The notes under the pieces are model-generated. The model worked only from the letters and a program-made list of their open reading frames with translations, did no database searches and was not told where the DNA came from. DNA of 64,000 nucleotides from NCBI GenBank assembly GCA_000989305.1, contig LBTB01000005.1:4409-68408 (forward strand), in the 5' to 3' direction. The DNA is from Candidatus Shapirobacteria bacterium GW2011_GWF2_37_20 (GTDB lineage Bacteria; Patescibacteriota; Microgenomatia; UBA12405). A program made the translations under genes and the position numbers. Below are positions 38,395 through 64,000 of this stretch, piece after piece. Every line of letters starts with the position of its first letter. Within the stretch, counting starts at the first letter, position 1.

Positions 38395-39252
38395 ATGAGA
38401 AAAACTGCCCTAATAGTATTTGCGTGTATCTACCTTAGTTTGGGGATAATTAGAATTGAAGCAAAAGCAGTTAGTCCAACTGTAATACCAACAGCGATAC
38501 CAACAGTGGAGATAATGCCAACGGTGGCGGCGAGAGAGAACATTACTGAGGTATCAAACAAGACGGCGATAAAGACGACTGAGGTGAAATGGAAAGGATG
38601 GAATAGTATAAGTTTCTTGATTTCAGAAGCGATAAAGAGAGGGGTGCCGGAAAATACAATAGTGTTACTGTTACTTTTACCTTTGGTGGCAACTTTAGCC
38701 TCGTTTTTGCACTATGTCGGAGGATTATCCGGATATGGGGTTTTTACACCAACGATGATGGCGGTGGCTTTCTTGGCAACCGGAGTGACGGGCGGATTGG
38801 TTTTATTTGCGGTAATATTGGCGATTACATCCCTGAGTAATATTTTTCTTAAAAAAATGAAGCTGCATTTTTGGCCAGCAAGATCGATTTCTTTGCTGTT
38901 TGTGAGTCTGGGAACTTTTGGGGTAATGATAGTGTCGGCACTACTGAACATCTCTGAAGTGAGTAAAATTTCCATTTTCCCGATTTTGTTTATGATTTTG
39001 CTAACGGAAGAGTTTGTGAGAACCCAATTAATAAAAAGCAAAAAGGAGGCAGTGAGATTAACAATTGGTACCCTAATATTGGCGGGGGTGGGAGCAATTT
39101 CAATGGAAATAAAAGGGTTGCAGGAATTAGTTTTAAAATATCCGGAGATGTTGGTTTTGATGGTAATTGTGATAAATATAGTGGTCGGAAGCTACGGGGG
39201 GATTCGGTTGACAGAGATAAAGAGGTTTAAAAATGCAATCAGAAAAAAATAA
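38395..39252 (+). CDS. 7-TM membrane protein of the 7TM_transglut type (no transglutaminase domain), partner of the ATP-grasp ligases
   Basis: Signal peptide, an about 70-aa Pro/Thr-rich extracytoplasmic segment, then seven hydrophobic helices. It lies immediately upstream of RimK-type ATP-grasp genes. Confidence 0.55.
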   Translation: MRKTALIVFACIYLSLGIIRIEAKAVSPTVIPTAIPTVEIMPTVAARENITEVSNKTAIKTTEVKWKGWNSISFLISEAIKRGVPENTIVLLLLLPLVATLASFLHYVGGLSGYGVFTPTMMAVAFLATGVTGGLVLFAVILAITSLSNIFLKKMKLHFWPARSISLLFVSLGTFGVMIVSALLNISEVSKISIFPILFMILLTEEFVRTQLIKSKKEAVRLTIGTLILAGVGAISMEIKGLQELVLKYPEMLVLMVIVINIVVGSYGGIRLTEIKRFKNAIRKK

Positions 39253-39277
39253 ATTAATAATGAATAATTAAAAATAT

Positions 39278-40666
39278 ATGTTGGGCATAGATTTAAAACA
39301 GTACCGGCAGTTTTTGACAAAAAACGAAAGAAACAAGGTGTATCTACGCAAAAACAGTTCGCAAGGACGGTCAATTGCTGATAACAAATATAAAACCAAA
39401 ATAAGACTGGCAAGGGCGGGAGTAAGTGTACCAGAATTGATGGCCAGATTTAGAAAAGGAGAAGATCTAAGGAGTTTTGAATGGGGGAAATTGGAGGCGA
39501 ACTTTGTGATTAAGCCGGTATTGGGCTATGGAGGAGAGGGAATACTTATTATAAGAAGGAAACTAGATTCTAGAGACGAGAGAGGGGAAGAAAGATATCT
39601 GATGATGAGCGGGAAGATAATTGGCCTGGAAGAAATTAAACTACATTGTCAGGAAATTTTAGCAGGTAAATATAGTATGCACGGAACGGCTGACAACGTG
39701 ATTATTGAAGAAAGAATTAAAATTCACCCGATGTTTTTTTCACTAACCAAGGTGGGTACTCCGGATATCAGAGTAATTGTGTTTAATTGGGTGCCAGTGA
39801 TGGCCATGTTGAGAATTCCAACCGAAAAAAGCGGGGGAAAGGCGAATTTACAGCAAGGAGCTTATGGTTTGGGAATTGATTTGGCAACGGGAATTACTAC
39901 CTTTGGGATTGAAGGGAAGGGTGAAGAGGTGCGAAAAATTTTTGATTATCGAAAAAAAAGAATGATTAAGGTAAATGGGATTAAGATTCCTTTTTGGAAA
40001 GAAATTTTAGAAACAGCAGTAAAATGTCAGAGGGCAATCCCGGGATTGGGATTTATGGGGGTTGATATAGTGCTGGATAAAGAAGACGGACCAAAGGTGT
40101 TGGAAGTTAATGCCAGACCAGGCTTGTCAATTCAGCTGTGCAACAAGGCGGGGATGAAGAGAAGGATTGAAAAAATCGATGATATAAACGTGAGAAGTGA
40201 TGAGCACGCCATCTCTTTGGCGAAGTATTTGTTTGGAGAGAAGTTTTCAGATAAGGTCGCTGAGAAGGAACAGGAGAAAAAGATTCAGCCTCTCGAGATT
40301 ATTAAAATGAAAATTCCTCGTGGTTTTAAACCTGATTTACAAAAAAGTCCAATTTTAAAACAAGGGAAACACCGGGTGGTGGAGGTAAGGGCGAAAGTTG
40401 ATACCGGAGCGTTTAGAAGCTCGATTGACAGAAATTTGGCGGATAAATTGGGATTGATGTCGGTGGAAAAGATTTTATATTTTCGGCATTACAAATCAAG
40501 CCTGGGAAAACACAAGGACAGACCGGTAATCGGAGTGACTTTTTGGTTGCAAGGAAAAAAGGTAGTAACGGCAGTTAACGTAGCCGATAGAAGTAAGCTT
40601 CGAACCAAGTTTTTGCTGGGAAGAAAAGATTTGGAAGGATTTTTAATTTCGGCCAAAAAAATATGA
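39278..40666 (+). CDS. ATP-grasp ligase (alpha-L-glutamate-ligase-related, ATPgrasp_ST-like) fused to a C-terminal retropepsin-like aspartic protease domain
   Basis: ATP-grasp motifs IKPVLGYGGEGI and GVDIVLDKEDGPKVLEVNARPGLS. The C-terminal about 130 aa carries KVDTGAFRSS (the D-T-G-A aspartic protease hallmark, as in Pfam Zn_protease/TIGR02281-type). Confidence 0.7.
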   Translation: MLGIDLKQYRQFLTKNERNKVYLRKNSSQGRSIADNKYKTKIRLARAGVSVPELMARFRKGEDLRSFEWGKLEANFVIKPVLGYGGEGILIIRRKLDSRDERGEERYLMMSGKIIGLEEIKLHCQEILAGKYSMHGTADNVIIEERIKIHPMFFSLTKVGTPDIRVIVFNWVPVMAMLRIPTEKSGGKANLQQGAYGLGIDLATGITTFGIEGKGEEVRKIFDYRKKRMIKVNGIKIPFWKEILETAVKCQRAIPGLGFMGVDIVLDKEDGPKVLEVNARPGLSIQLCNKAGMKRRIEKIDDINVRSDEHAISLAKYLFGEKFSDKVAEKEQEKKIQPLEIIKMKIPRGFKPDLQKSPILKQGKHRVVEVRAKVDTGAFRSSIDRNLADKLGLMSVEKILYFRHYKSSLGKHKDRPVIGVTFWLQGKKVVTAVNVADRSKLRTKFLLGRKDLEGFLISAKKI

Positions 40667-40700
40667 AGAAGTTAATAAATATTATTTTTTTTAATTAAAA

Positions 40701-41681
40701 ATGACTAAAATAGCATTGTTTTTTGGGGGGAAAATCAGTAAACATTTGGTGTTGGTGAGAAATGCGGCGAGGAAAGAGGGGGCGGAACTGGACTTGGTGT
40801 CATATAACAATGTTTGTTTTGAGACGGAAACAGGGAAGATAAGTTTACGGGGAAAAGACGTAAATGATTACGATGTGCTATTTTTTAGGACGACGGGGAA
40901 ACACTGGGAGGAAGTTGACCTGATTATTAATAGTATAAAAAAAGAGGACATGGTGGTAATTGATCCTTTGGTTCGAGACGGAAAACCAAGCTATGCCTGC
41001 AAAGCGTGGCAGATGTTGAAATTAAAAGAAGCAGGGATTGATGTGCCCAGAAGTGTGTATGGATCTTTGTGGTATTTATATGAAGTTATGGCCAGAAATG
41101 ATAATACCCACCAACGAATTTTTTCTTCCGGTGAAGCTGCCAGACAGGCACAAAGTCAGGAAAAGATACTGGAAGGAGATTATGAATTTAATTTTCCGGT
41201 GATAATTAAGGGGAGCGGCGGAGATAGGGGAACAAGAGTGTTTAAGGCTAACAATTTGAAAGAATTAGAAAAATTGGTCAGAGACTTGAGAAAAACGGAA
41301 ACTGAGGGAGGGAAACGATATTTATTACAGGAATACATCGAAAATGATGGAGACTTTAGGGTTTTGATACTGGGAGAAAAAGTGTTGGGGGTAATGAAAA
41401 GAGCCAGGGCGAATAAAAATGAGTTTAGGAATAATTATAGTGCCGGGGGAACAGTGGAAGTGGCTGATTTGCCGGAAGAAGTGAAAGAGTTAGCGGTTAG
41501 GGCGGCGAAAACTTGTGGGCTGGCGGTGGCGGGAGTTGATGTGGCATTCAGAGATTTTGATATGAAAAAACCGGTGATTTGGGAGGTGAATAAGGGCCCA
41601 CAATTTAAGGGTTTTATGAAAGCCACAGGAGTTGATGTGCCGACAGAAATTGTTAAATATTTGGTTTCACTTAAAAAATAA
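40701..41681 (+). CDS. RimK-like ATP-grasp ligase, paralog 2
   Basis: FPVIIKGSGGDRGTRVF and GVDVAF...KPVIWEVNKGPQF match RimK-family motifs. Confidence 0.75.
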   Translation: MTKIALFFGGKISKHLVLVRNAARKEGAELDLVSYNNVCFETETGKISLRGKDVNDYDVLFFRTTGKHWEEVDLIINSIKKEDMVVIDPLVRDGKPSYACKAWQMLKLKEAGIDVPRSVYGSLWYLYEVMARNDNTHQRIFSSGEAARQAQSQEKILEGDYEFNFPVIIKGSGGDRGTRVFKANNLKELEKLVRDLRKTETEGGKRYLLQEYIENDGDFRVLILGEKVLGVMKRARANKNEFRNNYSAGGTVEVADLPEEVKELAVRAAKTCGLAVAGVDVAFRDFDMKKPVIWEVNKGPQFKGFMKATGVDVPTEIVKYLVSLKK

Positions 41682-41685
41682 AATT

Positions 41686-42594
41686 ATGAAGAGAAAAATT
41701 GTTACTTTTACCATGTCGCTTCGACAAAGCCAATTTGAGGTGGACAGACTTGAAGGGGAAGCCAATAAAATGGGAATTGAAGTGAATAGGGCGCTTTATA
41801 GAGAATTAAGCTTTGATCTGAAAGACGGGGCGGCGAAAGTATTCGTCCGAGGCGAGGAATTGACAGCCGAGAATACTTTAGGATTGTGGTTTAGGGTAGC
41901 GGGAACCAGAAGCGGAAAGTATACCGAAGCGAGAAATCTAGTAATCAGAATCCTAAGAGGAAAAGGAGTGTTTTGTGTTAATGAAAAAGGTTATCTGATG
42001 TGGACGAGAATGGGAAAAATTGCTCAGCATGGGGTGTTTTTGGAGAATAATATTCCGGTGGTGCCGACAATGGTTTTTTATACAAAAGAACAGGTTTTGC
42101 AAAGTAAAATAGGAGAAGAATTCGGGTGGCCGGTGATAGCTAAGCATGAGAGGGGGTATCAAGGGAAGTCTGTCAGAAGATTTGAAGAGAGAAAAGAATT
42201 AGAAAAATTTGTTAGGAAAATTAACGAAAAAAACGTGGGAATGTTTTTGTGGCAAAAGTATTTACCAACTAAGTGGGATATCCGAGCAGTAATTGTTGAC
42301 GGAAAGGCGATTGGGGGAATGAAGAGGTCGGCGGTGGGAGAGGAGTTTAGAAGTAATTTTTCATTGGGAGGAGAGGTGGAAGCGTGGAAATTGAGTGACG
42401 ATGAGATAAAATTGGCGGAGAAAGTGGCAAATGTTTGTGGACTGGATTATGGTGGGGTAGATATTATGAAAGACGAAAAAGGGAATAATTATATTCTGGA
42501 GATAAATCGGCAATGTCAGTTTCAGGGTTTTGAAAAAGCGACAGGAATCAATGTGGCCAAAAGAGTAGTTGAAATGATAGCCAATAAAAAATAG
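41686..42594 (+). CDS. RimK-like ATP-grasp ligase, paralog 3
   Basis: WPVIAKHERGYQGKSV and GGVDIMKDEKGNNYILEINRQCQF. The ORF track starts at 41632 and overlaps the previous gene; the ATG at 41686 (MKRKIVTF) is preferred. Confidence 0.75.
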   Translation: MKRKIVTFTMSLRQSQFEVDRLEGEANKMGIEVNRALYRELSFDLKDGAAKVFVRGEELTAENTLGLWFRVAGTRSGKYTEARNLVIRILRGKGVFCVNEKGYLMWTRMGKIAQHGVFLENNIPVVPTMVFYTKEQVLQSKIGEEFGWPVIAKHERGYQGKSVRRFEERKELEKFVRKINEKNVGMFLWQKYLPTKWDIRAVIVDGKAIGGMKRSAVGEEFRSNFSLGGEVEAWKLSDDEIKLAEKVANVCGLDYGGVDIMKDEKGNNYILEINRQCQFQGFEKATGINVAKRVVEMIANKK

Positions 42595-45095: not shown

Positions 45096-45171
45096 GGGCC
45101 TGTGGCTTAGTTGGTTATAGCGCTTCATTTGCAATGAAGAGGTCGGGAGTTCGAATCTCCCCAGGTCCACC
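45096..45171 (+). tRNA. tRNA-Ala (anticodon TGC)
   Basis: Acceptor GGGCCTG/CAGGTCC with the G3:U70 Ala identity pair, anticodon loop TTTGCAA, T-arm GGGAGTTCGAATCTCCC. Confidence 0.85.
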
Positions 45172-45309
45172 TACGCCATTAGAGAAATGTACCTAGAATT
45201 AGGAAAAGAATCTGAATTGATTGTTTTCCTTGACTATGTACGCACATTAACAATCTATTGAATATTTTATTTTTAATTTTTATCTTGGCAACTAAACTGA
45301 GTTGCTTAA

Positions 45310-48297
<2,988 letters not shown>

Positions 48298-48395
48298 TAC
48301 AGCTCTTAGGCCGCCAGCACTGGTGGTTTAGGAGCTGATTAGGCAGCTCAATTTAGAGGCCAAGAAAAATTAATATAAAATAACTTTACTTTTTG

Positions 48396-48517
48396 AGTCT
48401 CGGTCATCAGAGCGAGGTGGCTCCACCTTTTCCCATTCCGAACAGAGAAGTGAAACGCCTCAGCGCCGACAATAGTCTCCCTGCAAAGGGTCCTGAAGAT
48501 AGGTCGTGGCCGGGACT
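48396..48517 (+). rRNA. rrf: 5S ribosomal RNA
   Basis: CCGAACAGAGAAGTGAAACGCCTCAGCGCCGA matches the 5S consensus (CCGAAC.CAGAAGTGAAAC...AGCGCCGA). The terminal helix is AGTCTCGGTC / GGCCGGGACT. Confidence 0.85.
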
Positions 48518-55718: not shown

Positions 55719-57704
55719 ATGATTAAAATACTGCAAATGTATTTAAAGGTATGGTTATTGGTACTGCCGATTTTTTTCTTGCCGGTAGTTGTGGATAGTT
55801 TTGGTTTCGGGAAAAATTGGTTAATGCTGCTGACAATGTTGTTGGGAATAATAATTTGGGGGATGGCTTTGGTAATCAGAAAAGAAAACAAGATTTTTAT
55901 AGGAAAGGGCCTGGGGTGGTTGATAACTTTGACGGTGTGGGCGACAATTGTTTGGTATTTTGGGGAAGCTGGAGTGAGAATGAGAACTTTTATGGGAACA
56001 TCCGGTTTAGCGTTGATGTGGAGCATGACTATCTGGACGTTTTTGTGGATGCAGGCGAGCGAAGAGAAGGACGAGGGTGGAGAGAAATGGTTGATAGTTG
56101 CGGGAATTTTGGTAGCACTAAGTTCTTTGGTAGTATTTTTATTGCCGGCAGCTAAATTGCCAATTTCTTGGCCAAAACAAAACCCGATTATAAACATTAA
56201 TTCGGACTGGTCATTGACGGGTTCGGTTTTGGGAGAGTTGTGGTTGCTGGGTATATTGGGGACAATTTGGATAAAAAAACTGGCAGAAAAGATTAAGAGG
56301 AAGGAGGGGTATGTCGGAGAGATGGCGATAACGGCGATATTAGTATTGGTGTTATTTTTGGATGTTTTCAAAATGTTTAGAAGTGGTTGGAACTACCTCG
56401 ATATAAATAGTTCATGGACAATTGCCACAGAATCGTTAAAGTACCGACCATTGCAAGGAGTGGGGGCAGGAAATTATTTAGAGGCATTTAATAAGTGGAG
56501 ACCGGTGGCTTTTAACAACAGTAAAAACTGGTCAGGAAGTTTTGGATGGGCGGCCAACGGAGGATTGCAATTGTGGACGGAGCTAGGAATTGTGGGCTTA
56601 ATAATCGGGATATTGACAATGAGAGCTTTGATAAAAGGTCAAAAAAATAAAAGCAGAAAAATAGGAATAGCTTTGGGAGGGGTAATGCTGGTATTAACAC
56701 CATTTAATCTGGTGGGGTTGATGTTGATGATGTGGCTAGTGACAAGAGAAATAGAGAAGAAAGAAAGAAGTCTGATGTTAAAAGTCGGCGAAAAGGGATT
56801 GAACGCGGCACCAATTATATTGGCGGTGGTGGTGTTGCTGGGAAGTGGTTTTGGACTTTACTGGTGGACGAGAGTTTTGTTGGGTGAGACTTATTTGAAA
56901 AAATCATTGGTGGCGGCAGTAAACAATGATGGAGGGTCAACTTATATTTGGCAAATAAAAGCGATTACGGCTAATGCCAATAATGCTGAGTATAGAAGGA
57001 TCTATTCACAAACTAATTTGGCGTTGGCAATAGGGTTAATGAGTAATAAAGATATTACTAATGACCAGAAAGAAAAGGCGGCAGTGCTGATTCAACAAGC
57101 GGTGAGAGAAGGGAAGGCCGCGGTGGCTTTAGATACGAGGAACGCAAGTTATTGGTCCAATTTAGCTTCTATTTACCGACAGCTAGTGGGGAGTGTTGAG
57201 GGGTCGGCAGACTGGAGTTATGAGGCGTATTCTCAGGCGATAGGCTTAGATTCAGTGAATCCATCTTTAAGACTTGATTTTGGAGGCTTGCTATTTGCGA
57301 CAGGAAGATATGAGGAGGCGGATAGATTGTTTGAACAGGTGGTTTCTTTAAAACCTGATTTAGCAAACGGTTGGTACAACTGGGCATATACGGCAAAAAA
57401 TATGAATAAATTATCAAGTGCGGTAGCCAGGTTAAGCCAGGCGCTTAGTTTGGTGCCGATTGATTCCGGTGACTATGATAAAGCTAGTAAAGAACTTGAG
57501 GCCTGGAACAAAGAGTATGAAGCCCTGATAAAACAACAGCAAGGCTTACAACAAGAGAAAGAGGCAGAAACACTGAAACTACCAGAGGCTTTACCCGACG
57601 ACGGTAATAATAGTAGTGTGGTAGTGCCAACGGGTGGTTTAGAGCCGCCGGTGGTTGAGGTAACGCCGACACCTAGTGACGGCGGAGTGATAATAGAACC
57701 TTAA
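55719..57704 (+). CDS. O-antigen-ligase (Wzy_C)-like membrane domain fused to C-terminal TPR repeats
   Basis: The N-terminal about 420 aa is polytopic. The C-terminal about 240 aa has TPR-like repeats (YWSNLASIYRQLVG..., GWYNWAYTAKNMNK...). Confidence 0.5.
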   Translation: MIKILQMYLKVWLLVLPIFFLPVVVDSFGFGKNWLMLLTMLLGIIIWGMALVIRKENKIFIGKGLGWLITLTVWATIVWYFGEAGVRMRTFMGTSGLALMWSMTIWTFLWMQASEEKDEGGEKWLIVAGILVALSSLVVFLLPAAKLPISWPKQNPIININSDWSLTGSVLGELWLLGILGTIWIKKLAEKIKRKEGYVGEMAITAILVLVLFLDVFKMFRSGWNYLDINSSWTIATESLKYRPLQGVGAGNYLEAFNKWRPVAFNNSKNWSGSFGWAANGGLQLWTELGIVGLIIGILTMRALIKGQKNKSRKIGIALGGVMLVLTPFNLVGLMLMMWLVTREIEKKERSLMLKVGEKGLNAAPIILAVVVLLGSGFGLYWWTRVLLGETYLKKSLVAAVNNDGGSTYIWQIKAITANANNAEYRRIYSQTNLALAIGLMSNKDITNDQKEKAAVLIQQAVREGKAAVALDTRNASYWSNLASIYRQLVGSVEGSADWSYEAYSQAIGLDSVNPSLRLDFGGLLFATGRYEEADRLFEQVVSLKPDLANGWYNWAYTAKNMNKLSSAVARLSQALSLVPIDSGDYDKASKELEAWNKEYEALIKQQQGLQQEKEAETLKLPEALPDDGNNSSVVVPTGGLEPPVVEVTPTPSDGGVIIEP

Positions 57705-58837
57705 GGGTTAACTATCCACCATTTGAAGGTAACATCTTCGGAAAGAGGAGAGAGAAAGCCAGCCGAAAAAGAATCGAGGGACTTAGAAAGAAGTTCAAGA
57801 GATTGGTTTTTGCCGCCGGTCAAGACAGTGAGATAAACCTGGGAGGAAGGAGTAAGTTGGGAATTTTGAATGACGACTTGTTTTTGGCCGGAAGGAATAG
57901 TGCCAGTACCGGAGAGAGAGTTGGAATCAGTTTGATTTTTGAGAGAGATGTTTTGAGAAATTTCGGGAGCGGCGATTATAAGACTGGAAATCATTGAGGC
58001 CTGAAGAAGATTGCCTTCAGTGATAATAGAAGGTTGAGGGGCGCTGGTGGGGGTCGAGGGACTGGTAAAGTCGTTTTGGGCAACAATTTTTTCCAATGTT
58101 TTTTTTTCAGTTTCAACTTGAAGTTTTTGAGCGGAATCTGAGATTAAGGGGAGGAGGCGATTGTAGGTGGCCAGGGCGTCGGGAAGAAAACCGGCTTGTT
58201 GTTGAATGCGGGCCAGGTCGTAGAAATTCTGAGCCTTGGTTGGTTCAAGAGAAACGGTGGCTGAGAGATAGGCGAGAGTGTTTTGGAGATCGCCCTTTTT
58301 GGCATAGAGAGAAGCTAATTGTCGGGTAAGATCAGGAGAATTTTGATTTAAATTTTGAGCTTGCTGGTAATCACTAATGGCGGCGGCAATTAGTTGAGGT
58401 TGAGTGTCTAGGAGGGAGAGGTAGATCCGGCCACGTTGTTCGTAGCCACGGTAGTCAGAAGGTGATGTTTTGATAGCATCTGATGCGGCTATTATTGATT
58501 GATTAAGATAATTTATGATAGTTTGGTTATCACTTTTTGAGGCTTGAGAATCTAAGGCTTGGGTGAAATATTGCTGGGAAGCCAGAAGATAGTGTTGGAT
58601 TGATTTAGGAACCTGGGTGGGAGAGGGAAGAGATTCTTGAGATGGGAAATTGGAGGGGGGGGTAATTGAAGAAGAATTTTTGGTTTTTAATAAAATAAGG
58701 CCACCGAGAGAAAGGAGAGTGATTCCGGAAATAGAAAAAAGGGGGATAAGATTGATTTTTGAAGGAATTTGATCTGGTTTGGTGGGTGTTAGACCGAGAT
58801 TTTCGAGCTGTCGTTGCTGGTTGGGGGTGGGGTCCAT
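57701..58837 (-). CDS. Membrane-anchored TPR-repeat protein with a conserved C-terminal ~55-aa domain ending in WWIVNP
   Basis: N-terminal TM helix LIPLFSISGITLLSLGGLILL. TPR-like helical repeats (YEQRGRIYLSL, YDLARIQQQAG). The C-terminus VVIQNSQLTPSSQVYLTVLTGG...DVTFKWWIVNP is homologous to the C-terminus of the 62380..64000 ORF. Confidence 0.5.
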   Translation of the reverse strand: MDPTPNQQRQLENLGLTPTKPDQIPSKINLIPLFSISGITLLSLGGLILLKTKNSSSITPPSNFPSQESLPSPTQVPKSIQHYLLASQQYFTQALDSQASKSDNQTIINYLNQSIIAASDAIKTSPSDYRGYEQRGRIYLSLLDTQPQLIAAAISDYQQAQNLNQNSPDLTRQLASLYAKKGDLQNTLAYLSATVSLEPTKAQNFYDLARIQQQAGFLPDALATYNRLLPLISDSAQKLQVETEKKTLEKIVAQNDFTSPSTPTSAPQPSIITEGNLLQASMISSLIIAAPEISQNISLKNQTDSNSLSGTGTIPSGQKQVVIQNSQLTPSSQVYLTVLTGGKNQSLELLSKSLDSFSAGFLSPLSEDVTFKWWIVNP

Positions 58838-58870: not shown

Positions 58871-61800
58871 TTAGTAAAAACGGAAGGTTCCGGTTTGGAG
58901 GGTAACGGTTGGGGTGGTGCACCAGTCTCCATAAATTGGGCCGGTAAAATAAGGGGCAATTCGATATTGATATGAATTGCCAGAAGAGACACTGGTGTCA
59001 GTGTAAGCAGTAGTGCCGACACCGAGATCCTGGAAGGCAGTAAAGCCTATGGAGTTAACGTTTCTTTCAACAAGAATACCGTTTTCACCACTGGCCTGAA
59101 GGTTCCAGACAACTTTGATGGAAGAATTATTATTAGCTTTTTGTAATAAACAGCCCTGACTAACTCCCGGGTTGGCAACGGTGGTAAAGTTGAAAGGAGT
59201 AACTTGGGTGGGACTCCAAACGTTGGTGCCACTGTAATCGATGGATTGAGATTTCCAATAGTAGGTAGTGTCGGGTATTAACTGGCTCTGAAAGGTATAA
59301 GTGGCAACAGTTCCGGAAGAATAAGCAGAGGTGCCGACATTTTGACCACTCCAACCTACATTGGAGGAAGTTTGATCATAAACATTGCAGTCTGTGGTCA
59401 TATCTGAATCAGAGCAAACAGTAATTTTATATTGAAGGGGGTTACTGTTTGGGTCAGAGCTAGAGGTACCAAGAGATAAGGTAAGGGGTTGGTTAATACT
59501 ATCGTTTGCGGGGGAAATTAAAGTTGGAGTATAAGAAAGGCCGTCGGTGGTAAAACTGTAGGCGGCGGCTTGAGTGCTGCCCCAGTTTTTACTACCGGCA
59601 TAATCTTTGGCGCGAGTTTTCCAGTAATAGGTGGTACTTGGTGCAAGGGTGGATCCGCTTTGAATGATATAAACGGCGGTAGTTCCGGAAGAATAAGCAG
59701 AAGTACCGACATTTTGACCGCTCCAACCAACATTGGAAGAAGTTTGGTTGTAAGTAAGACAACCGGTAGTCATGATGGAATTGGTACAAATTTTTAGTTC
59801 ATATTGAAGATTGTCACTTTCGGTGTCGGTGGTAACGGTTTTGAAAGTGGGAGCTAATTTTTGATTAGTGGCGGTGTTGATGGGAAGGGAAAGGGCGGGA
59901 ATAGCGGGGAGATTGTTTACTACTGTTTGAATATTGTCAAAATAGAAAATTTGACTGGGTTCAGCATTATTAATGTAAAAATCAAACTTAGTGACAGCAT
60001 TTCTGGCGCTAGGATCAATACCGGTAATATCCCAAGATTTTTGCTCCCAGGTGTTGGTACTACCAATAGTAATATTATTTGAGTTTTCGCTGGCATTGGT
60101 TTCGCCAAAACGAAACCGGAGGTTTTGGCCGGCAATGTTGGAATAAACATAATAGGTGATAGTGATACTACTGGAAAGGTCAATGGAAGTGGTTTTGGTA
60201 ATCGTGTCTTGATAGGAGGCTAAATTATCTTGAGCGGTGGTAGCGGAGGGGTTATTAGTAGAACCGGAAAGGGAGGTGATGTAGAAGGCGGCAATTCTGC
60301 CGGCACCACCATTGCCTCCATCACCTCCAGAAGTACTGTTACCACCAGTGCCTCCTGGAGCAGAGACAAGGTTGGTACCAAGGGTAATAGTATTGGCAAG
60401 AAGGCGAATTGAACCTCCAGCACCGCCACCGCCACCGCCTCCATAGGTTGGAGCGGCGCCATTAGTGCCAGCGCTTGTAATAGCTCCGGAAACACTTATA
60501 CTGCCCGCGCCAATGATAATGATGCCGCCGCCAGTACCACCGGCACCGCCAGTAGTGGCTCCGCCACCTCCGCCACCTCCTCCTGAGCCTAAGTGAGCGA
60601 TGGCCAGAGTGGCATCTCCGTAGGTACCACCTCCGCCACCTCCTCCTCCGATGACACCACCAGTACCACCATTACCACTAGCATTAGTACCTCCGTTGGC
60701 TCCATTGTTGGTACCGACACCGTAATAACCAAAGGTACCATAACCACCGCCGGCACCTCCACCACCCAGGGGGTTGACGGCGTAGTGGACAGTACCACCA
60801 CCGCCACCACCTCCTCCAAGGGAAGCGCTACCGGCACCGCCGGCATAGGCAGTGGTCATATTGTAACCGCCACCACCACCGCCACCACAAGTTCCGGCAA
60901 GACCGGCGTTGTTGAATTGACCTCCATTACCACCACCGGCAGTACCGCAAAAGGCAATTCCACCGGTAGCACGGGCACCACCGTCGACTCCACCCGTGCC
61001 GCCAGAAAAACCGAGACCGCTGGCACTGATAGTGCCAGAAACAGTAACGGTGCCATTAGCCTTGAAAGCAAGGACACCGCCCTTGGTACCATTAAAGGCC
61101 ATGGGACGGAATATTTGACCGGCATTAACGGTAACATTGGTGTATTGAGGGACACGCTGAACCATAATTTTTTGAGTAGTACCCGCATAAGCATTTTGAA
61201 GGCCGGTGTCGAAAATAAATTTGGTAGTGCCAATTTTTTGAGTAACAGTTCTAAGTTCATATTTGCCAACGTCTGCATAAGTGGTGCCAACACCCTGAAG
61301 GTTGATGATGATAACTTCGTCTCCGACGTCAACACCGGTGGTGGTAGTGGAGACAACAATAGCGGTACTGCCAGCCGAGGTATTAATAGTCGAGGAAAAA
61401 TTGACGGCATCGGCGGTGGCACGACCGACACAGGATTCGGTATTTATTTCATCGTTACTAGTGGATGAGACAGTACAAGCGCCATCTTTGCCGGTGCCGG
61501 CGTAGCCAATAATGTTAACTCTGACTGAGCCGGTACCTTCCTGTTTGATAGCGGTGTCCTGGGTGGCGGCAGCATAGGTAGTGTCACTGCTGACCCAGTT
61601 AGCAACTGCATCAGCATTATCAATAACAAGGTCGATAACAATGGGGTAACTACGGTTATGCTCATTTAACCATTGCTGACCTTCCTGGGTGATAATTTTG
61701 CTAATAGAATACTGGTTTTTGGAGAGAGGCTTAATTTCGTATTTAATACCAAAAGAAAGGATGCCGGGACTGTTGGCTTCATACATGACGGGCTTGGGAA

Positions 61801-62380
61801 CGGTAAAGGATTTTTTACCTTGACTGTAAAAATCGATTCTACCGTCGATTTCCTGGTATTTATCAATACCGGAAGTTTCAACGTTTTGAATTATTTTATC
61901 AATGCTTATAGCGGTAATTTTGTCAGCGACGATAAACTCTTCCAAAAGACGGGTGGGGTTAATGGAATATTTGAGGTCGATATGGGGAAAGATCTTCGGA
62001 TAGGTAATGGAACTTTCGCTGACAACGGGTTTTTCTTTGGTTTCGGAGGAAGCGAAGGTTTGTTGAGGAGGAGTATAAAAGGTGAGAGAACTGGAATTGT
62101 TGGTGAATTTGATGGCATTTGAGACAAGGGGATTGGATTTAAAATAAGTTTGAAAATTGTTGGTAGTATTTTCGTAATTGTATTGTCCTTTGGAGGGTTT
62201 AATGGTGGTGTCGATATTTTTGAAAGTGTTTAAATTGTTGCCAAAAGATGATTTTTGGTTTTTGTTGTTAATTAAAAATCTGGTGATGACTATAAAGAGA
62301 GAAATAATGACAATAAAAATGACTCCAAATATAATTATCAGATCTGATTTAGGGCGGTGGGTAAAAAGATGTTTAATCAT
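58871..62380 (-). CDS. Giant surface-anchored protein (about 1170 aa): N-terminal TM anchor, extreme Gly-rich central region, two tandem FN3-like repeats plus a third FN3-like C-terminal module
   Basis: The ATG at 62380 (MIKHLFT) overlaps the upstream gene's stop as TAATG; the ORF track extends to a GTG at 62395. Residues about 455-700 are mostly Gly (GGGGGGG runs). Two about 120-aa repeats contain TSSNVGWSGQNVGTSAYSSGT...TTYYWK. Confidence 0.6.
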   Translation of the reverse strand: MIKHLFTHRPKSDLIIIFGVIFIVIISLFIVITRFLINNKNQKSSFGNNLNTFKNIDTTIKPSKGQYNYENTTNNFQTYFKSNPLVSNAIKFTNNSSSLTFYTPPQQTFASSETKEKPVVSESSITYPKIFPHIDLKYSINPTRLLEEFIVADKITAISIDKIIQNVETSGIDKYQEIDGRIDFYSQGKKSFTVPKPVMYEANSPGILSFGIKYEIKPLSKNQYSISKIITQEGQQWLNEHNRSYPIVIDLVIDNADAVANWVSSDTTYAAATQDTAIKQEGTGSVRVNIIGYAGTGKDGACTVSSTSNDEINTESCVGRATADAVNFSSTINTSAGSTAIVVSTTTTGVDVGDEVIIINLQGVGTTYADVGKYELRTVTQKIGTTKFIFDTGLQNAYAGTTQKIMVQRVPQYTNVTVNAGQIFRPMAFNGTKGGVLAFKANGTVTVSGTISASGLGFSGGTGGVDGGARATGGIAFCGTAGGGNGGQFNNAGLAGTCGGGGGGGYNMTTAYAGGAGSASLGGGGGGGGTVHYAVNPLGGGGAGGGYGTFGYYGVGTNNGANGGTNASGNGGTGGVIGGGGGGGGTYGDATLAIAHLGSGGGGGGGGATTGGAGGTGGGIIIIGAGSISVSGAITSAGTNGAAPTYGGGGGGGAGGSIRLLANTITLGTNLVSAPGGTGGNSTSGGDGGNGGAGRIAAFYITSLSGSTNNPSATTAQDNLASYQDTITKTTSIDLSSSITITYYVYSNIAGQNLRFRFGETNASENSNNITIGSTNTWEQKSWDITGIDPSARNAVTKFDFYINNAEPSQIFYFDNIQTVVNNLPAIPALSLPINTATNQKLAPTFKTVTTDTESDNLQYELKICTNSIMTTGCLTYNQTSSNVGWSGQNVGTSAYSSGTTAVYIIQSGSTLAPSTTYYWKTRAKDYAGSKNWGSTQAAAYSFTTDGLSYTPTLISPANDSINQPLTLSLGTSSSDPNSNPLQYKITVCSDSDMTTDCNVYDQTSSNVGWSGQNVGTSAYSSGTVATYTFQSQLIPDTTYYWKSQSIDYSGTNVWSPTQVTPFNFTTVANPGVSQGCLLQKANNNSSIKVVWNLQASGENGILVERNVNSIGFTAFQDLGVGTTAYTDTSVSSGNSYQYRIAPYFTGPIYGDWCTTPTVTLQTGTFRFY
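59183..59906. repeat. Tandem duplication (about 2 x 360 bp, about 75% identical) encoding two FN3-like modules
   Basis: Direct-repeat DNA, for example ACATTTTGACCACTCCAACCTACATTGGAGGAAGTTTG (about 59340) versus ACATTTTGACCGCTCCAACCAACATTGGAAGAAGTTTG (about 59709). Confidence 0.65.
60283..61020. repeat. Low-complexity Gly-codon repeat region (CCACC/GCCACC-rich on the + strand) inside the giant gene
   Basis: Dense reiteration of CCACCGCCACC / CCTCCTCC tracts. It generates many spurious overlapping ORFs on both strands. Confidence 0.7.
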
Positions 62381-64000
62381 TAGTTTATTAGCCACCAGTT
62401 AATATTTACATTATCGTTTAAGGCTTGATCGATGGCAATGGTAAAGGTGTCTTGGTCTTTACTTTTTAGATAGGGAACTTGGTTTTGAGTAGAAGAAGTA
62501 GGGGTGAGATAGACCATGGAGGTTGAAGTAAGTTGGTTGTTTTGGATGGTAATTTCGGTTTGACCGGCGGCAAGAGTGATAGTACCGACAGTGGCATTAG
62601 TTGAGAGTTGAGCGGAAGAGGTGGCAAGAGAAGCAAGTGAAGAATCAGCAATAATAGCGGAGGAGGTAGCGATGTTGATTTTTTCAGCGGTTAAATTTTT
62701 AGTTTCGATGTTGTCGGCTTTTAACAAGTTGGCGATAAGAGAACCGTTAATATTTAGGTTACCATTGATGGTAACATTACCGTCGCTACTAAGAACCAGG
62801 CGGTCGTTTAAGAAATGAATGGTACCAAGACCACTGGGTTGGATATAGAGATTTTCAGAAGTGGTTTCCAAAATATTATCCTGAAGAGCAATTTGACCTA
62901 CGGTGAAGATATCGGAAACGTTGGCGGAGGTAAATTTACTAAGACCCTGAACAGTGAGCTGAGCACCGATAATGAGGTCGTTGCTAAGAGTGAGATTGTC
63001 GAGAGTAAGGTCAGCGCTGTCGGTAGAAACTGAGGTATCCCAGGTAGTAGAATCAGCCAGAAGAGCAGAAGGAGTGGCTTGATTCTCAGCGATAATAGTC
63101 TTGATCTCGTCACGAAGAGCAGTGATTTTGGCGGCGAAAACATCAGAAATGTTACCTTCGGGGTTGATAATTTGATCGGCGTAAATTGAGGAGAAGGAGG
63201 CCTCGTTGGCGGTGATTTGGTTGGCAGTAAGATCTGAGATTTCGGCAGTAGTGGCGGTGATATTTCCGGTGATGATGGTTTCGGAGGCGATTTTTTTGGC
63301 AGCAAGATTGTCGACGATAATATTCTTGGCGGAGAGGAGGCCGGTGTTGATTTTGGCGGCGGAGATTTGGGCAAAGAGACCGATTTTGGTGATGATTTTA
63401 TCTGTAGAATCAGTTAAAGAGTAAGACGCGGTCTCGATTTCATTTTTAGTATCGGAATAACCAAGAGAGGCGAGAACTTCGGGAGAAACATTGTAGTTGA
63501 CGGCGACTTGGCCATTTTCGGTGATGAAGACATCTGGGTCGTACCAACCCAGATTGACGATGACATTAATTAGACCCACCTGATTCGGATCGGAGCTATT
63601 GTATGAGTCTATGGCTTTGGCGGCAATATATCCGGCGCTGATAGCTTTGGAGGCAATTCCTTTAATTGAGCTTGCTGTTAGAGAATCGCCTGGATTTATT
63701 GGACCATTAATGGAACTTACTTTTAACTTGACGATACCAGACAAGGCCAAAGGTAGGGCATTGGGTTGATCAGCAATATTTTCATTTCCGACAAATGAAG
63801 GATCAAAAGAGTGAATTCCGGCCAATGAATTATCGGAAGAGGCTTTAATATATTTATTGTCAGAAAAGGCAATTAAGTCACCAGCTTCTGTGGGTTCGCT
63901 GGCGATGACATATTCGGCAAAATCAGCAGTACCAGAAAGACTGTAGGCAACAGAAGAAGCTAAAACATTGGTTCTGATTCTACCGACTTTAGTACCACTA
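62380..64000 (-). CDS. Repeat-rich surface/fibre-like protein whose N-terminus lies beyond the window. The C-terminus has the same ~55-aa domain as the 57701..58837 ORF (ends NINWWLIN).
   Basis: The reading frame stays open from 63825 to the window edge, and the 'start' at 63825 is a TTG. The protein is rich in N/T/S/I repeats (NITATTAEISDLTANQITANEAS). The C-terminus is ITIQNNQLTSTSMVYLTPTSS...NINWWLIN. Confidence 0.5.
   Translation of the reverse strand, partial: SGTKVGRIRTNVLASSVAYSLSGTADFAEYVIASEPTEAGDLIAFSDNKYIKASSDNSLAGIHSFDPSFVGNENIADQPNALPLALSGIVKLKVSSINGPINPGDSLTASSIKGIASKAISAGYIAAKAIDSYNSSDPNQVGLINVIVNLGWYDPDVFITENGQVAVNYNVSPEVLASLGYSDTKNEIETASYSLTDSTDKIITKIGLFAQISAAKINTGLLSAKNIIVDNLAAKKIASETIITGNITATTAEISDLTANQITANEASFSSIYADQIINPEGNISDVFAAKITALRDEIKTIIAENQATPSALLADSTTWDTSVSTDSADLTLDNLTLSNDLIIGAQLTVQGLSKFTSANVSDIFTVGQIALQDNILETTSENLYIQPSGLGTIHFLNDRLVLSSDGNVTINGNLNINGSLIANLLKADNIETKNLTAEKINIATSSAIIADSSLASLATSSAQLSTNATVGTITLAAGQTEITIQNNQLTSTSMVYLTPTSSTQNQVPYLKSKDQDTFTIAIDQALNDNVNINWWLIN

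What the first reader, a model, noticed from the sequence alone, without database searches (positions are those of the whole stretch)
58871..62380. Giant surface protein with an about 250-residue poly-glycine domain and duplicated FN3-like modules
The region at residues about 455-700 is dominated by Gly (runs of 7-8 G, GGTGG/GGAGG/GGNGG units), encoded by a CCACC-rich tract (60283-61020). It is followed by two about 120-aa tandem repeats (TSSNVGWSGQNVGTSAYSSGT...TTYYWK) and a third FN3-like C-terminal module. The N-terminus has a single TM anchor. The Gly tract is recombination- and slippage-prone, and it may form a flexible or polyglycine-II stalk projecting binding modules. The protein is a candidate adhesin for an epibiotic lifestyle.
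Basis: seen in the sequence. Interest (0 to 1): 0.6.

Follow-up and report, generated by a model that had tools for sequence, protein, structure and literature searches.

The report
Membrane-anchored surface protein with folded glycine-rich module
This is a real, intact gene for a large cell-surface protein of a groundwater Shapirobacteria (CPR) bacterium. Its glycine-rich stretch is the conserved core of a widespread, structurally unsolved 440-residue module related to the N-terminal domain of the myxobacterial gliding protein AgmC, not a floppy poly-glycine stalk.

Summary
One intact ORF (58871-62380, minus strand, 1169 aa from the ATG) has an N-terminal membrane anchor. It has a 250-residue stretch that is 43% Gly with six G7-G8 runs, two tandem repeats of about 120 aa (53% identical), and an FN3-like C-terminus.

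The identical protein is encoded on 15 independent contigs, so the tract is not an assembly artefact or a frameshift. It is already deposited (KKQ31446.1) under the misleading name 'PE-PGRS family protein'.

The Gly runs are fixed in position and length across homologues that are 42-82% identical, and all indels fall in the loops between them. They lie inside a module of about 440 aa (beta-barrel plus beta-solenoid) that AlphaFold2 models confidently (pLDDT 89, pTM 0.91), with the Gly core neither helix nor strand.

That module is homologous to the AgmC N-terminal domain (hhalign 99.6%). It has no Pfam model and no solved relative, and it occurs in more than 11,000 protein clusters.

The DNA is not a slippage tract: Gly codons are mixed and GGG is never used. 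One public assembly does carry a 78-nt in-frame deletion between 17-nt direct repeats.

Polyglycine-II packing of the core is plausible but untested. An adhesin role is inferred, not shown.

The parts
58871..62380 (-). Complete CDS (1169 aa from the ATG, stop codon included). An alternative in-frame GTG lies at 62395.
   Evidence: The exact protein is on 15 contigs and equals KKQ31446.1 / KKQ63650.1.
62273..62344 (-). N-terminal hydrophobic signal-anchor or TM segment (residues about 18-41, GTG numbering).
   Evidence: Kyte-Doolittle 19-residue window reaches 3.57 at residues 19-37. It is the only such segment in the protein.
61517..62218 (-). Membrane-proximal N-domain, weakly DUF7948-like (residues about 60-293). 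It is shared with many Microgenomates paralogues.
   Evidence: Pfam DUF7948 E 6.7e-4, below the cut-off. BLASTP shows 42-51% identity to the N-termini of proteins including P0012, P0016, P0017, P0020 and P0022.
60248..61510 (-). AgmC_N-like module (residues about 296-716): beta-barrel, Gly-rich core, and solenoid coils.
   Evidence: NCBIfam NF047640 E 1.4e-13. hhalign to a bona fide AgmC_N gives 99.6%, E 3.5e-24. AF2 pLDDT 89.4, pTM 0.91. 11,672 clusters match.
61091..61498 (-). Beta-barrel sub-domain of the module (residues about 300-435). It carries the conserved motifs DGACTVS, GDE(I/V)(L/I)IINLQG and QKIMVQRVPQYTNVTV.
   Evidence: Strands in the AF2 model. Invariant D304, D329, N365, Q413, R414, P416 and Y418. 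Local Foldseek matches to tailspike/depolymerase and V-ATPase beta-barrels.
60524..61021 (-). Gly-rich core (residues 459-624) with five conserved oligo-Gly runs separated by variable loops.
   Evidence: The model is confident but has almost no DSSP helix or strand.
60248..60523 (-). Three solenoid-like coils (residues 625-716). Each is a long beta-strand plus a Gly-rich return, and they include the sixth G-run (652-658).
   Evidence: DSSP strands at model positions 336-346, 373-385 and 411-423. Conserved GGGI(I/V)xI, AGGSI and GRI motifs.
60811..60888 (-). 78-nt block deleted in frame in GCA_000992285.1. It is bounded by two exact copies of GTGGTGGCGGTGGTGGT (60872-60888 and 60794-60810).
59891..60229 (-). 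Conserved module of about 110 aa of unknown fold (residues 723-835).
   Evidence: BLASTP to many homologues at 39-52% identity. No significant Pfam or PDB hit.
59531..59902 (-). Tandem repeat 1, Ig/FN3-like (residues about 832-955).
   Evidence: 53% identical to repeat 2. Ig_Rha78A_N and Ig_J_second both E 0.011. The aligned region of homologue P0016 hits Ig_Rha78A_N at E 3.3e-20.
59171..59530 (-). Tandem repeat 2, Ig/FN3-like (residues 956-1075).
58874..59170 (-). C-terminal FN3-like module (residues 1076-1174).
   Evidence: Best PDB sequence hits are 3mpc 'Fn3-like protein' (E 0.0047) and neogenin FN3 (E 0.19). No Pfam hit.
62380..64000 (-). 3' end of the upstream fibre-like gene, which stays open to the window edge. 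Its stop overlaps the ATG by 1 nt.
   Evidence: The orthologous gene is 4620 aa in L014. Peptidase_G2 and K1-lyase_C hits.
57701..58837 (-). Downstream co-oriented gene (378 aa, TM plus TPR), starting 33 nt after the stop. It shares a C-terminal domain with the upstream fibre protein.
   Evidence: The synteny is conserved.

Best explanation
The gene encodes a type-II (N-in, C-out) membrane-anchored cell-surface protein of a Candidatus Shapirobacteria (Microgenomates, CPR) bacterium.

Domain order outside the membrane:
- a DUF7948-like domain;
- one compact module of about 440 residues, homologous to the N-terminal domain of myxobacterial AgmC;
- an unassigned module of about 110 aa;
- three Ig/FN3-like beta-sandwich modules.

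The glycine-rich 'tract' is the interior of the AgmC_N-like module, not a linker. Six oligo-glycine segments of fixed position and length pack against long parallel beta-strands. They most likely adopt polyglycine-II-type extended helices that only Gly can fill. This would give a rigid body from which the sequence- and length-variable inter-run loops project.

The protein is made together with a giant tail-fibre-like protein encoded immediately upstream, by translational coupling. It most likely acts as a binding or structural element of a surface-fibre apparatus.

Shown: gene integrity, domain map, conservation pattern, homology to AgmC_N, a confident compact model, synteny.
Inferred: PGII geometry, extracellular orientation, binding function.
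For: - Integrity: the identical 1169-aa product is on 15 contigs, and the gene DNA differs by 0-1 nt in three of them.
- Anchor: there is a single hydrophobic segment, at the N-terminus.
- Module boundaries and homology: phmmer and BLAST against 119 homologues. NCBIfam AgmC_N E 1.4e-13. hhalign of the module profile against a protein that scores 464.8 bits on AgmC_N gives 99.6%, E 3.5e-24 over 348 columns.
- Fold: AF2 pLDDT 89.4, pTM 0.91, with the G-runs at pLDDT 86-97 and almost no helix or strand assigned across model residues 170-335.
- Conservation: runs 0.88 versus loops 0.52, zero insertions in runs, and about 12.6 inserted residues per sequence in loops (alignment).
- Spread: 11,672 clusters at E<=1e-3 and 1,765 at E<=1e-30. 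The module occurs in proteins up to 7,697 aa, with several matched stretches in some of them.
- Context: the TAATG overlap with the upstream gene. The gene order fibre gene, this gene, TM+TPR gene, multi-TM+TPR gene, M23/LysM peptidase, Rho is conserved in a 67%-identical orthologue. It is also seen in near-identical contigs as far as those loci extend, to the multi-TM+TPR gene.
- Precedent: PGII scaffolds that display variable recognition loops are described for phage S16 gp38 and modelled for PE_PGRS33 (PMC7830552). The few known natural PPII bundles are listed in PMC12227593.
Against: - PGII geometry was not verified. The tools return no coordinates. Foldseek of the whole module found only weak tailspike-type matches (TM about 0.15). 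The core modelled alone found nothing in the PDB, and that model was only moderately confident (pLDDT 70).
- A profile search of PDB sequences found no ALK, gp38 or antifreeze relative.
- There is no experimental information on any member. No paper on AgmC was found in the searchable library.
- Topology, surface exposure and binding are inferred from sequence features only.
- The Ig/FN3 assignments are below curated thresholds.
Confidence: 0.62

Rival explanations
1. One reading: the Gly tract is a flexible or extended poly-glycine stalk or spacer. It merely projects the C-terminal binding modules away from the cell.
For: High Gly content and G7-G8 runs. The tract lies between the N-terminal anchor region and the C-terminal Ig-like modules.
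Against: The runs are fixed in position and length across homologues 42-82% identical, with no indels inside them. Conserved hydrophobic strands interrupt the tract. AF2 models the runs at pLDDT 86-97 inside a compact domain with pTM 0.91. The tract is an integral part of a module conserved in over 11,000 clusters.
Confidence: 0.08
2. The tract is a contingency (phase- or length-variable) locus. Slippage or recombination would generate surface variants.
For: One public assembly (GCA_000992285.1) has an in-frame 78-nt deletion exactly between two 17-nt direct repeats. The rest of the gene differs by only 3 substitutions. A second, 21-nt repeat pair lies 63 nt apart and is also in frame.
Against: There is no simple-sequence repeat. 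TRF finds only arrays of 2-3 copies with scores of 46 or less. Gly codons are mixed, GGG is used 0 of 168 times, and the longest homopolymer is 5 nt. Fifteen contigs encode the identical protein. The 84%-identical orthologue cluster shows no tract variation.
Confidence: 0.1
3. The module is a tailspike-like enzyme, such as a polysaccharide depolymerase or lyase. It would cut host or own envelope glycans rather than simply bind.
For: Foldseek's best PDB matches are phage tailspikes, capsule depolymerases and K1 lyase, at E about 1e-3. The co-translated upstream protein carries Peptidase_G2 (intramolecular chaperone) and K1-lyase_C signatures typical of tailspikes. An M23/LysM peptidase gene is nearby.
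Against: Overall TM-scores are only 0.15-0.18, and the high-probability matches are short (80-170 columns). No catalytic family is hit in Pfam, NCBIfam or PHROGs. No catalytic residues can be assigned.
Confidence: 0.15
4. The region is an assembly artefact, or two genes joined across a frameshift in a low-complexity region.
For: GC-rich, repetitive coding sequence of this kind is prone to mis-assembly. One assembly differs by 78 nt.
Against: The same reading frame and length appear on 15 contigs from independent assemblies. Full-length orthologues at 65-84% identity keep the same run structure. Homology continues on both sides of the tract within one domain.
Confidence: 0.02

Closest known systems
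AgmC N-terminal domain (NCBIfam NF047640, gliding_AgmC_N), found in Myxococcota adventurous-gliding protein AgmC
   Same: It is homologous over essentially the whole module (hhalign 99.6%, E 3.5e-24, 348 columns). The shared features are the beta-barrel motifs, the KGGV..F.A.GTV strand, the GGGI..I / AGGSI / GRI coils, and Gly-rich segments. Both sit in large surface proteins followed by Ig-like repeats.
   Different: The score is 50.6 bits against a 275-bit cut-off, and only model positions 27-266 are matched by HMMER. The Gly-rich insert here is larger, with six G7-G8 runs where the AgmC example has shorter runs. The architecture also differs. AgmC has a signal peptide, the module at the extreme N-terminus, and Ca2+-stabilised adhesin repeats. 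This protein has a TM anchor, a DUF7948-like domain, the module, and then Ig/FN3-like domains. The AgmC example is named a TIGR03382-family protein by its source. TIGR03382 being the MYXO-CTERM sorting domain is from my own knowledge, not checked here. AgmC itself has no known mechanism. Its discovery in a transposon screen is also from my own knowledge, and no paper on it was found.
Polyglycine-II / PPII helical-bundle domains: phage S16 gp38 adhesin, ALK/LTK glycine-rich domain, springtail antifreeze proteins, Obg, acetophenone carboxylase (PMC12227593)
   Same: Several oligo-Gly segments of about 6-8 residues are strictly conserved, while the connecting loops vary. This is the pattern described for gp38 and modelled for PGRS domains (PMC7830552). 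The model is confident but contains neither helix nor strand.
   Different: There is no detectable sequence relationship and no Foldseek match. Here the Gly segments are embedded in a beta-barrel plus beta-solenoid module, not in a stand-alone sandwich or a TNF-like domain. PGII geometry is unverified.
Pfam Gly_rich_2 (PF21722) domains in paralogous Microgenomates surface proteins
   Same: They occupy the same architectural slot, directly after the homologous TM plus DUF7948-like N-terminal region and before the same Ig-like repeats. They are also very Gly-rich.
   Different: The two are unrelated in sequence. There is no Pfam hit even at E<=10. jackhmmer from Gly_rich_2 does not recruit this family. 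hhalign probabilities are 8% and 0.9%.
Mycobacterial PE_PGRS proteins (the name attached to the deposited record)
   Same: Both are glycine-rich surface proteins with GGxGG-type units, proposed to be folded rather than disordered (PMC7830552).
   Different: There is no PE domain. PE_PGRS proteins are essentially actinobacterial and are exported by the ESX-5 type VII system (PMC7830552), whereas this protein comes from a CPR bacterium and has an N-terminal TM anchor. The repeats are not tandem GGA-GGX arrays. The name reflects compositional similarity only.

Membership tests
AgmC_N domain superfamily (NF047640) | Significant profile match to the family model over the domain | tested here: met
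   hmmscan E 1.4e-13 for residues 299-536. Profile-to-sequence hhalign against a bona fide member (464.8 bits) gives 99.6%, E 3.5e-24, module columns 7-416.
AgmC equivalog (NF047640 at its curated cut-off) | Score at or above 275 bits, and an AgmC architecture: the module at the extreme N-terminus after a signal peptide, followed by Ca2+-stabilised adhesin repeats | tested here: not met
   50.6 bits. The architecture is TM, DUF7948-like domain, module, then Ig/FN3-like domains, unlike P0119.
Pfam Gly_rich_2 (PF21722) | Match to the Pfam HMM, or profile similarity to members | tested here: not met
   No hit at E<=10. hhalign probability 8.4% for the module and 0.9% for the core.
PGII/PPII helical-bundle domains | Several oligo-Gly segments conserved in position and length, with variable connecting loops | tested here: met
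   Five runs in the core have 0.88 column conservation, no insertions and 0.4% gaps. Loops have 0.52 and carry all the indels.
PGII/PPII helical-bundle domains | Backbone dihedral angles near phi -75 / psi +150 and close hexagonal or layered helix packing | not testable with these tools
   Structure prediction returns only pLDDT and DSSP. The core is confident with no helix or strand assigned, which is compatible with PGII but not diagnostic.
PGII/PPII helical-bundle domains | Sequence or fold similarity to a solved PGII domain (ALK 7LS0, gp38 6F45, sfAFP 3BOG and others) | tested here: not met
PE_PGRS family (deposited annotation) | N-terminal PE domain followed by tandem GGA-GGX repeats, in an actinobacterial ESX-5 substrate | tested here: not met
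   No PE domain in Pfam at E<=0.1. The N-terminus is a TM anchor. The organism is a Shapirobacteria CPR bacterium.
RTX / HemolysinCabind beta-roll | Tandem GGxGxDxUx nonapeptides matching PF00353 | tested here: not met
   No Pfam hit for residues 290-735 even at E<=10.
FN3 / Ig-like beta-sandwich (C-terminal three modules) | Match to FN3/Ig family models, or a beta-sandwich model | tested here: inconclusive
   Only sub-threshold hits: Ig_Rha78A_N and Ig_J_second at E 0.011 and 3mpc Fn3-like at E 0.0047. Homologue repeats hit Ig_Rha78A_N or Pur_ac_phosph_N at 3e-4 to 1e-5. P0016 hits Ig_Rha78A_N at E 3.3e-20 in the aligned region.
Simple-sequence contingency locus | A long perfect short-unit repeat or homopolymer whose copy number varies among strains | tested here: not met
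   TRF arrays have 3.2 copies or fewer of units of 6 nt or more; the 7.7-copy ACC row is only 80% matched and overlaps the 12-nt row. The longest homopolymer is 5 nt and there are no GGG codons. Fifteen contigs are identical. One repeat-mediated deletion variant exists.

The most novel reading that the evidence does not exclude
The AgmC_N-like module may contain a previously unrecognised and very widespread polyglycine-II helix core. It would have six all-Gly helices packed against a beta-solenoid sheet, acting as a rigid scaffold that displays hypervariable loops, like the glycine-rich motifs and hypervariable segments of phage gp38 adhesins. With over 11,000 clusters at 50% identity, it would be by far the largest natural family of PGII-bundle domains. 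It would also be the first tied to CPR cell surfaces and to giant bacterial adhesin-like proteins.
Probability: 0.35. Interest if true: 0.6.

Novelty: new member of a known kind. Interest (0 to 1): 0.4.

Why it matters
CPR bacteria are thought to depend on other cells, and their large surface proteins are the obvious candidates for contact. Almost none of these proteins have an assigned fold or function.

This analysis replaces a misleading database name ('PE-PGRS family protein') with a domain map. It also shows that the eye-catching glycine tract belongs to a conserved, confidently modelled module. That module has no Pfam model and no solved relative, and it recurs in thousands of giant surface proteins across many phyla and in some viruses.

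If its core is a polyglycine-II assembly, it would greatly enlarge a class of protein architecture currently known from only about seven natural examples. It would also offer a natural scaffold for loop display.

The conserved, translationally coupled pairing with a giant tail-fibre-like protein points to a surface-fibre apparatus worth looking for by cryo-ET.

Tried and rejected
- Pfam, NCBIfam and PHROGs on the whole protein and on each segment: only AgmC_N (NCBIfam) was significant. DUF7948, Ig_Rha78A_N and Ig_J_second were sub-threshold.
- PDB sequence searches with the protein, the module profile and individual segments: nothing significant except a weak Fn3-like hit.
- Foldseek of the 446-aa model against the PDB: only weak tailspike/depolymerase and small beta-barrel matches, TM about 0.15. 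Against BFVD: a Bathycoccus-virus PA14 protein has the same fold (TMq 0.59), but it is uncharacterised.
- The Gly core modelled alone (pLDDT 70) and searched against the PDB: zero matches, so it gives no support for or against ALK- or gp38-like folds.
- Relationship to Pfam Gly_rich_2 was rejected. The Gly_rich_2 seed itself has no PDB sequence relative.
- No paralogues of this protein exist in the window.
- The genome-contig scan was swamped by poly-Gly patterns and confirmed only 13 loci. These span Saccharibacteria, Microgenomates and several other phyla.
- Cluster look-ups gave almost no taxonomy for the giant homologues.
- Literature searches for AgmC returned nothing relevant.
- The length difference inside the P0002 cluster was only an alternative start call, not tract variation.

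Full report
**1. What is in the sequence**

The region holds one long ORF on the minus strand, 58871..62395 from a GTG (1174 aa). The ATG at 62380 overlaps the TAA of the upstream ORF by one base (TAATG). It is also the start used in the public records, so the product is most likely 1169 aa. Residue numbers here count from the GTG; subtract 5 for the ATG.

- Residues 451-700 contain 107 Gly in 250 residues. There are G7-G8 runs at 504-510, 527-534, 583-590, 605-612 and 652-658, plus GGGGAGGG at 544-551.
- GC rises to 55-61% over this stretch.
- The only strongly hydrophobic segment is N-terminal, with its peak at residues 19-37.
- Two tandem units (about 832-955 and 956-1075) are 53% identical over 118 aa, with a DNA period of 372 nt.
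- The last 99 residues give a weak best match to a solved 'Fn3-like protein' (3mpc, E 0.0047).

The caveats are that the region is glycine-rich rather than poly-glycine, and that the protein is large rather than giant.

**2. Is it real, or an assembly problem?**

- The exact 1169-aa product is encoded on 15 contigs from independent assemblies, including Rifle groundwater metagenomes. In three loci fetched, the gene DNA differs from the window by 0-1 nt.
- The protein is deposited as KKQ31446.1 / KKQ63650.1, from Candidatus Shapirobacteria GW2011_GWF1_38_23 and GWF2_37_20, under the name 'PE-PGRS family protein'.
- Full-length orthologues at 65-84% identity keep the same run structure.
- A frameshift or collapse artefact is therefore excluded.

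One assembly, GCA_000992285.1 (protein P0001), differs by 3 substitutions and a clean 26-aa deletion. At the DNA level this is a 78-nt deletion exactly between two copies of the 17-nt repeat GTGGTGGCGGTGGTGGT (window 60872-60888 and 60794-60810). It removes one G-run plus its loop.

**3. Is the tract slippage-prone?**

Only weakly.

- Tandem Repeats Finder sees only short arrays of 2-3 copies, with scores of 46 or less.
- Gly codons in the tract are mixed: GGT 57, GGC 26, GGA 24. GGG is never used, in none of the gene's 168 Gly codons. The longest homopolymer is 5 nt.
- Only two exact repeats of at least 14 nt exist in the 750-nt tract: 21 nt at 63-nt spacing and 17 nt at 78-nt spacing. Both spacings are in frame.
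- The cluster of the 84%-identical orthologue shows no tract variation.

Rare repeat-mediated in-frame deletions therefore occur, or were assembled once. This is not a contingency-type simple repeat.

**4. Domain map**

BLASTP and phmmer against 119 homologues split the protein into six parts:

- (a) The TM anchor plus an N-domain (to about residue 293) that is weakly DUF7948-like.
- (b) One module of about 440 aa, residues about 296-716, which contains the whole Gly-rich region.
- (c) A conserved module of about 110 aa (723-835) with no family assignment.
- (d, e) The two tandem repeats. Their own Pfam hits are sub-threshold (Ig_Rha78A_N and Ig_J_second, E 0.011). The aligned region of homologue P0016 hits Ig_Rha78A_N at E 3.3e-20. 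Other homologue repeats give only weak Ig_Rha78A_N or Pur_ac_phosph_N hits.
- (f) The FN3-like C-terminus.

Many Microgenomates paralogues share part (a) and the C-terminal modules. In the slot of module (b) they carry one to three copies of Pfam Gly_rich_2 instead.

**5. The glycine-rich module**

Family assignment:
- It has no Pfam hit even at E<=10.
- It is unrelated to Gly_rich_2 (hhalign probability 8% and 0.9%).
- NCBIfam matches it to the AgmC N-terminal domain (NF047640, E 1.4e-13, 50.6 bits, far below the 275-bit equivalog cut-off).
- A profile of 31 module sequences aligns to a bona fide AgmC_N (P0119, 464.8 bits on NF047640) with probability 99.6%, E 3.5e-24, over 348 columns spanning the barrel, the Gly-rich part and the terminal coils.
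- The module is therefore a distant member of the AgmC_N superfamily, with a larger Gly-rich insert.

Distribution:
- A profile search of 1.84 billion representatives finds 11,672 clusters at E<=1e-3 and 1,765 at E<=1e-30.
- Several of these proteins are 3,000-7,700 aa long, and some show multiple matched stretches.
- Confirmed genomic loci include Saccharibacteria, Microgenomates, Bacteroidota-type and proteobacterial MAGs.

**6. Predicted structure**

With the 31-sequence alignment, AlphaFold2 gives pLDDT 89.4 and pTM 0.91 for residues 290-735.
- The first 130 residues or so form a beta-barrel.
- Long strands at protein residues 441-452, 625-635, 662-674 and 700-712 look like successive coils of a solenoid.
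- Between them, model residues 170-335 have pLDDT 86-98 but almost no DSSP helix or strand.
- The G-runs themselves sit in blocks with pLDDT 86-97, which is incompatible with a disordered linker.

Fold searches:
- Foldseek against the PDB gives only weak matches to phage tailspikes, capsule depolymerases, K1 lyase and small beta-barrels (E about 1e-3, TM about 0.15).
- Against BFVD, a Bathycoccus-virus PA14 protein shares the fold over 435 columns (TMq 0.59), and several giant-virus 'collagen-like' proteins match partly.
- The Gly core modelled alone is less confident (pLDDT 70, pTM 0.73, no secondary structure) and finds nothing in the PDB.
- A profile search of all PDB sequences finds no relative.

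**7. Conservation pattern**

This uses 29 core sequences that are 42-82% identical to the query.
- The five oligo-Gly runs have a mean top-residue frequency of 0.88, 0.4% gaps and no insertions.
- The loops between them have 0.52, and they carry all the indels (about 12.6 inserted residues per sequence).

This is what is expected if only glycine fits at those positions. It is the rule described for PGII sandwiches and bundles, whose loops are free to vary. It matches the glycine-rich motifs and hypervariable loops of phage S16 gp38 and the homology model of PE_PGRS33 (PMC7830552). The few natural PPII bundles known are listed in PMC12227593.

I therefore regard PGII-type packing of the core as the most likely reading. 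It remains an inference, because no coordinates could be inspected and there is no fold match to a solved PGII domain.

**8. Genomic context**

- The upstream ORF is open to the window edge. In a 67%-identical syntenic locus, the gene at that position is 4620 aa.
- The translated 3' part of that gene in the fetched locus shows many tail-fibre-like GIGTT repeats. It also hits a Peptidase_G2 intramolecular-chaperone domain (27.6 bits) and a K1-lyase_C domain (31.6 bits). The same signatures are weaker in the window.
- The same 1-nt stop/start overlap with the Gly-rich gene is present in both places.
- Downstream, 33 nt after the stop, lies a TM+TPR protein of 378 aa. Its last 94 residues or so are 37% identical to the C-terminus of the fibre protein (E 2e-14).
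- The order fibre gene, this gene, TM+TPR gene, multi-TM+TPR gene, M23/LysM peptidase, Rho is conserved in that orthologous locus. The first four genes are also seen in the near-identical loci, which end there. In the window the last two genes were identified.
- The cluster lies among housekeeping genes, so it is chromosomal rather than a prophage.

**9. Most likely function**

The protein is held in the membrane by its N-terminal anchor, with everything else outside. The AgmC_N-like module is a rigid body built around the oligo-Gly core, and it presents variable loops. The Ig/FN3-like modules extend it. It is co-expressed with a giant fibre protein, probably as part of a surface-fibre apparatus for contact with surfaces or other cells.

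A depolymerase-like enzymatic role is a weaker alternative, suggested only by distant tailspike similarities. A flexible stalk, a phase-variable tract and an artefact are each contradicted by the data above.

**10. Comparison with known families**

| Family | Result |
|---|---|
| AgmC_N | Homologous, but not an equivalog and with a different architecture |
| Gly_rich_2 | Not related |
| PE_PGRS | No PE domain and the wrong phylum; the deposited name is a compositional mis-annotation |
| RTX beta-roll | No match |
| PGII bundles | The conservation signature is met, the geometry is untestable here, and there is no similarity to solved examples |

**11. Novelty and interest**

The gene and its product are already in public databases, and the module already has an NCBIfam model. 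It is therefore a new, better-described member of a known but uncharacterised kind.

The interesting residue is structural. This is a very widespread module with no Pfam entry and no solved relative, and its confidently modelled core is neither helix nor strand. It may be a new class of polyglycine-II assembly. I rate the interest as moderate (0.4). The PGII reading has a probability of about 0.35 and would deserve about 0.6 if confirmed.

Noticed in passing
window 62380-64000 (minus strand); L014 1-6001: The upstream ORF runs off the window edge. It is the 3' end of a giant tail-fibre-like gene, 4620 aa in a syntenic relative. The relative has GIGTT-type fibre repeats, a Peptidase_G2 intramolecular-chaperone signature (motif GTADFAEYV here) and a K1-lyase_C C-terminal domain. 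Its stop overlaps the Gly-rich gene's ATG by 1 nt.
   Followed up: partly
window 62380-62670 and 57701-57990 (minus strand): The fibre protein and the downstream 378-aa TM+TPR protein share a C-terminal domain of about 94 aa ending ...WW(L/I)(I/V)N (37% identity, E 2e-14). In the fibre protein, its last 70 residues or so match Pfam K1-lyase_C weakly. The function is unknown; it could be a docking or assembly domain.
   Followed up: partly
homologues P0012, P0016-P0022 and others: A Microgenomates paralogue family keeps the same TM plus DUF7948-like N-terminus and the same Ig-like C-terminal repeats. It replaces the AgmC_N-like module with one to three copies of the unrelated Pfam Gly_rich_2 domain. 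Two different glycine-rich domains are thus interchangeable in one architecture.
   Followed up: partly
window 58871-62380: None of the gene's 168 glycine codons is GGG (GGT 84, GGC 51, GGA 33). This keeps G/C homopolymers to 5 nt or less in the tract. I did not test whether it reflects genome-wide codon bias or selection against slippage.
   Followed up: no
public records KKQ31446.1, KKQ63650.1, UniRef100_A0A0G0I4E1: The deposited name 'PE-PGRS family protein' is a compositional mis-annotation. There is no PE domain, and the organism is a CPR bacterium.
   Followed up: yes
window 45096-48515 (plus strand): A tRNA (45096-45169), a complete 23S rRNA (45316-48293) and a 5S rRNA (48399-48515) fill the ORF-free gap. 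No 16S gene lies directly upstream, since only about 1 kb separates the tRNA from the preceding gene. The 16S therefore appears unlinked.
   Followed up: partly
window 38395-42594 (plus strand): A cluster of a 7TM_transglut membrane protein, a sugar-transfer-associated ATP-grasp protein and two RimK-like ATP-grasp ligases. It may be a peptide-ligation or modification system.
   Followed up: no
window 60593-61468 (+) and 60856-61431 (-): Long shadow ORFs (291 and 191 aa) overlap the Gly-rich tract in other frames. They are by-products of the GC-rich GGN codon run, not genes.
   Followed up: no
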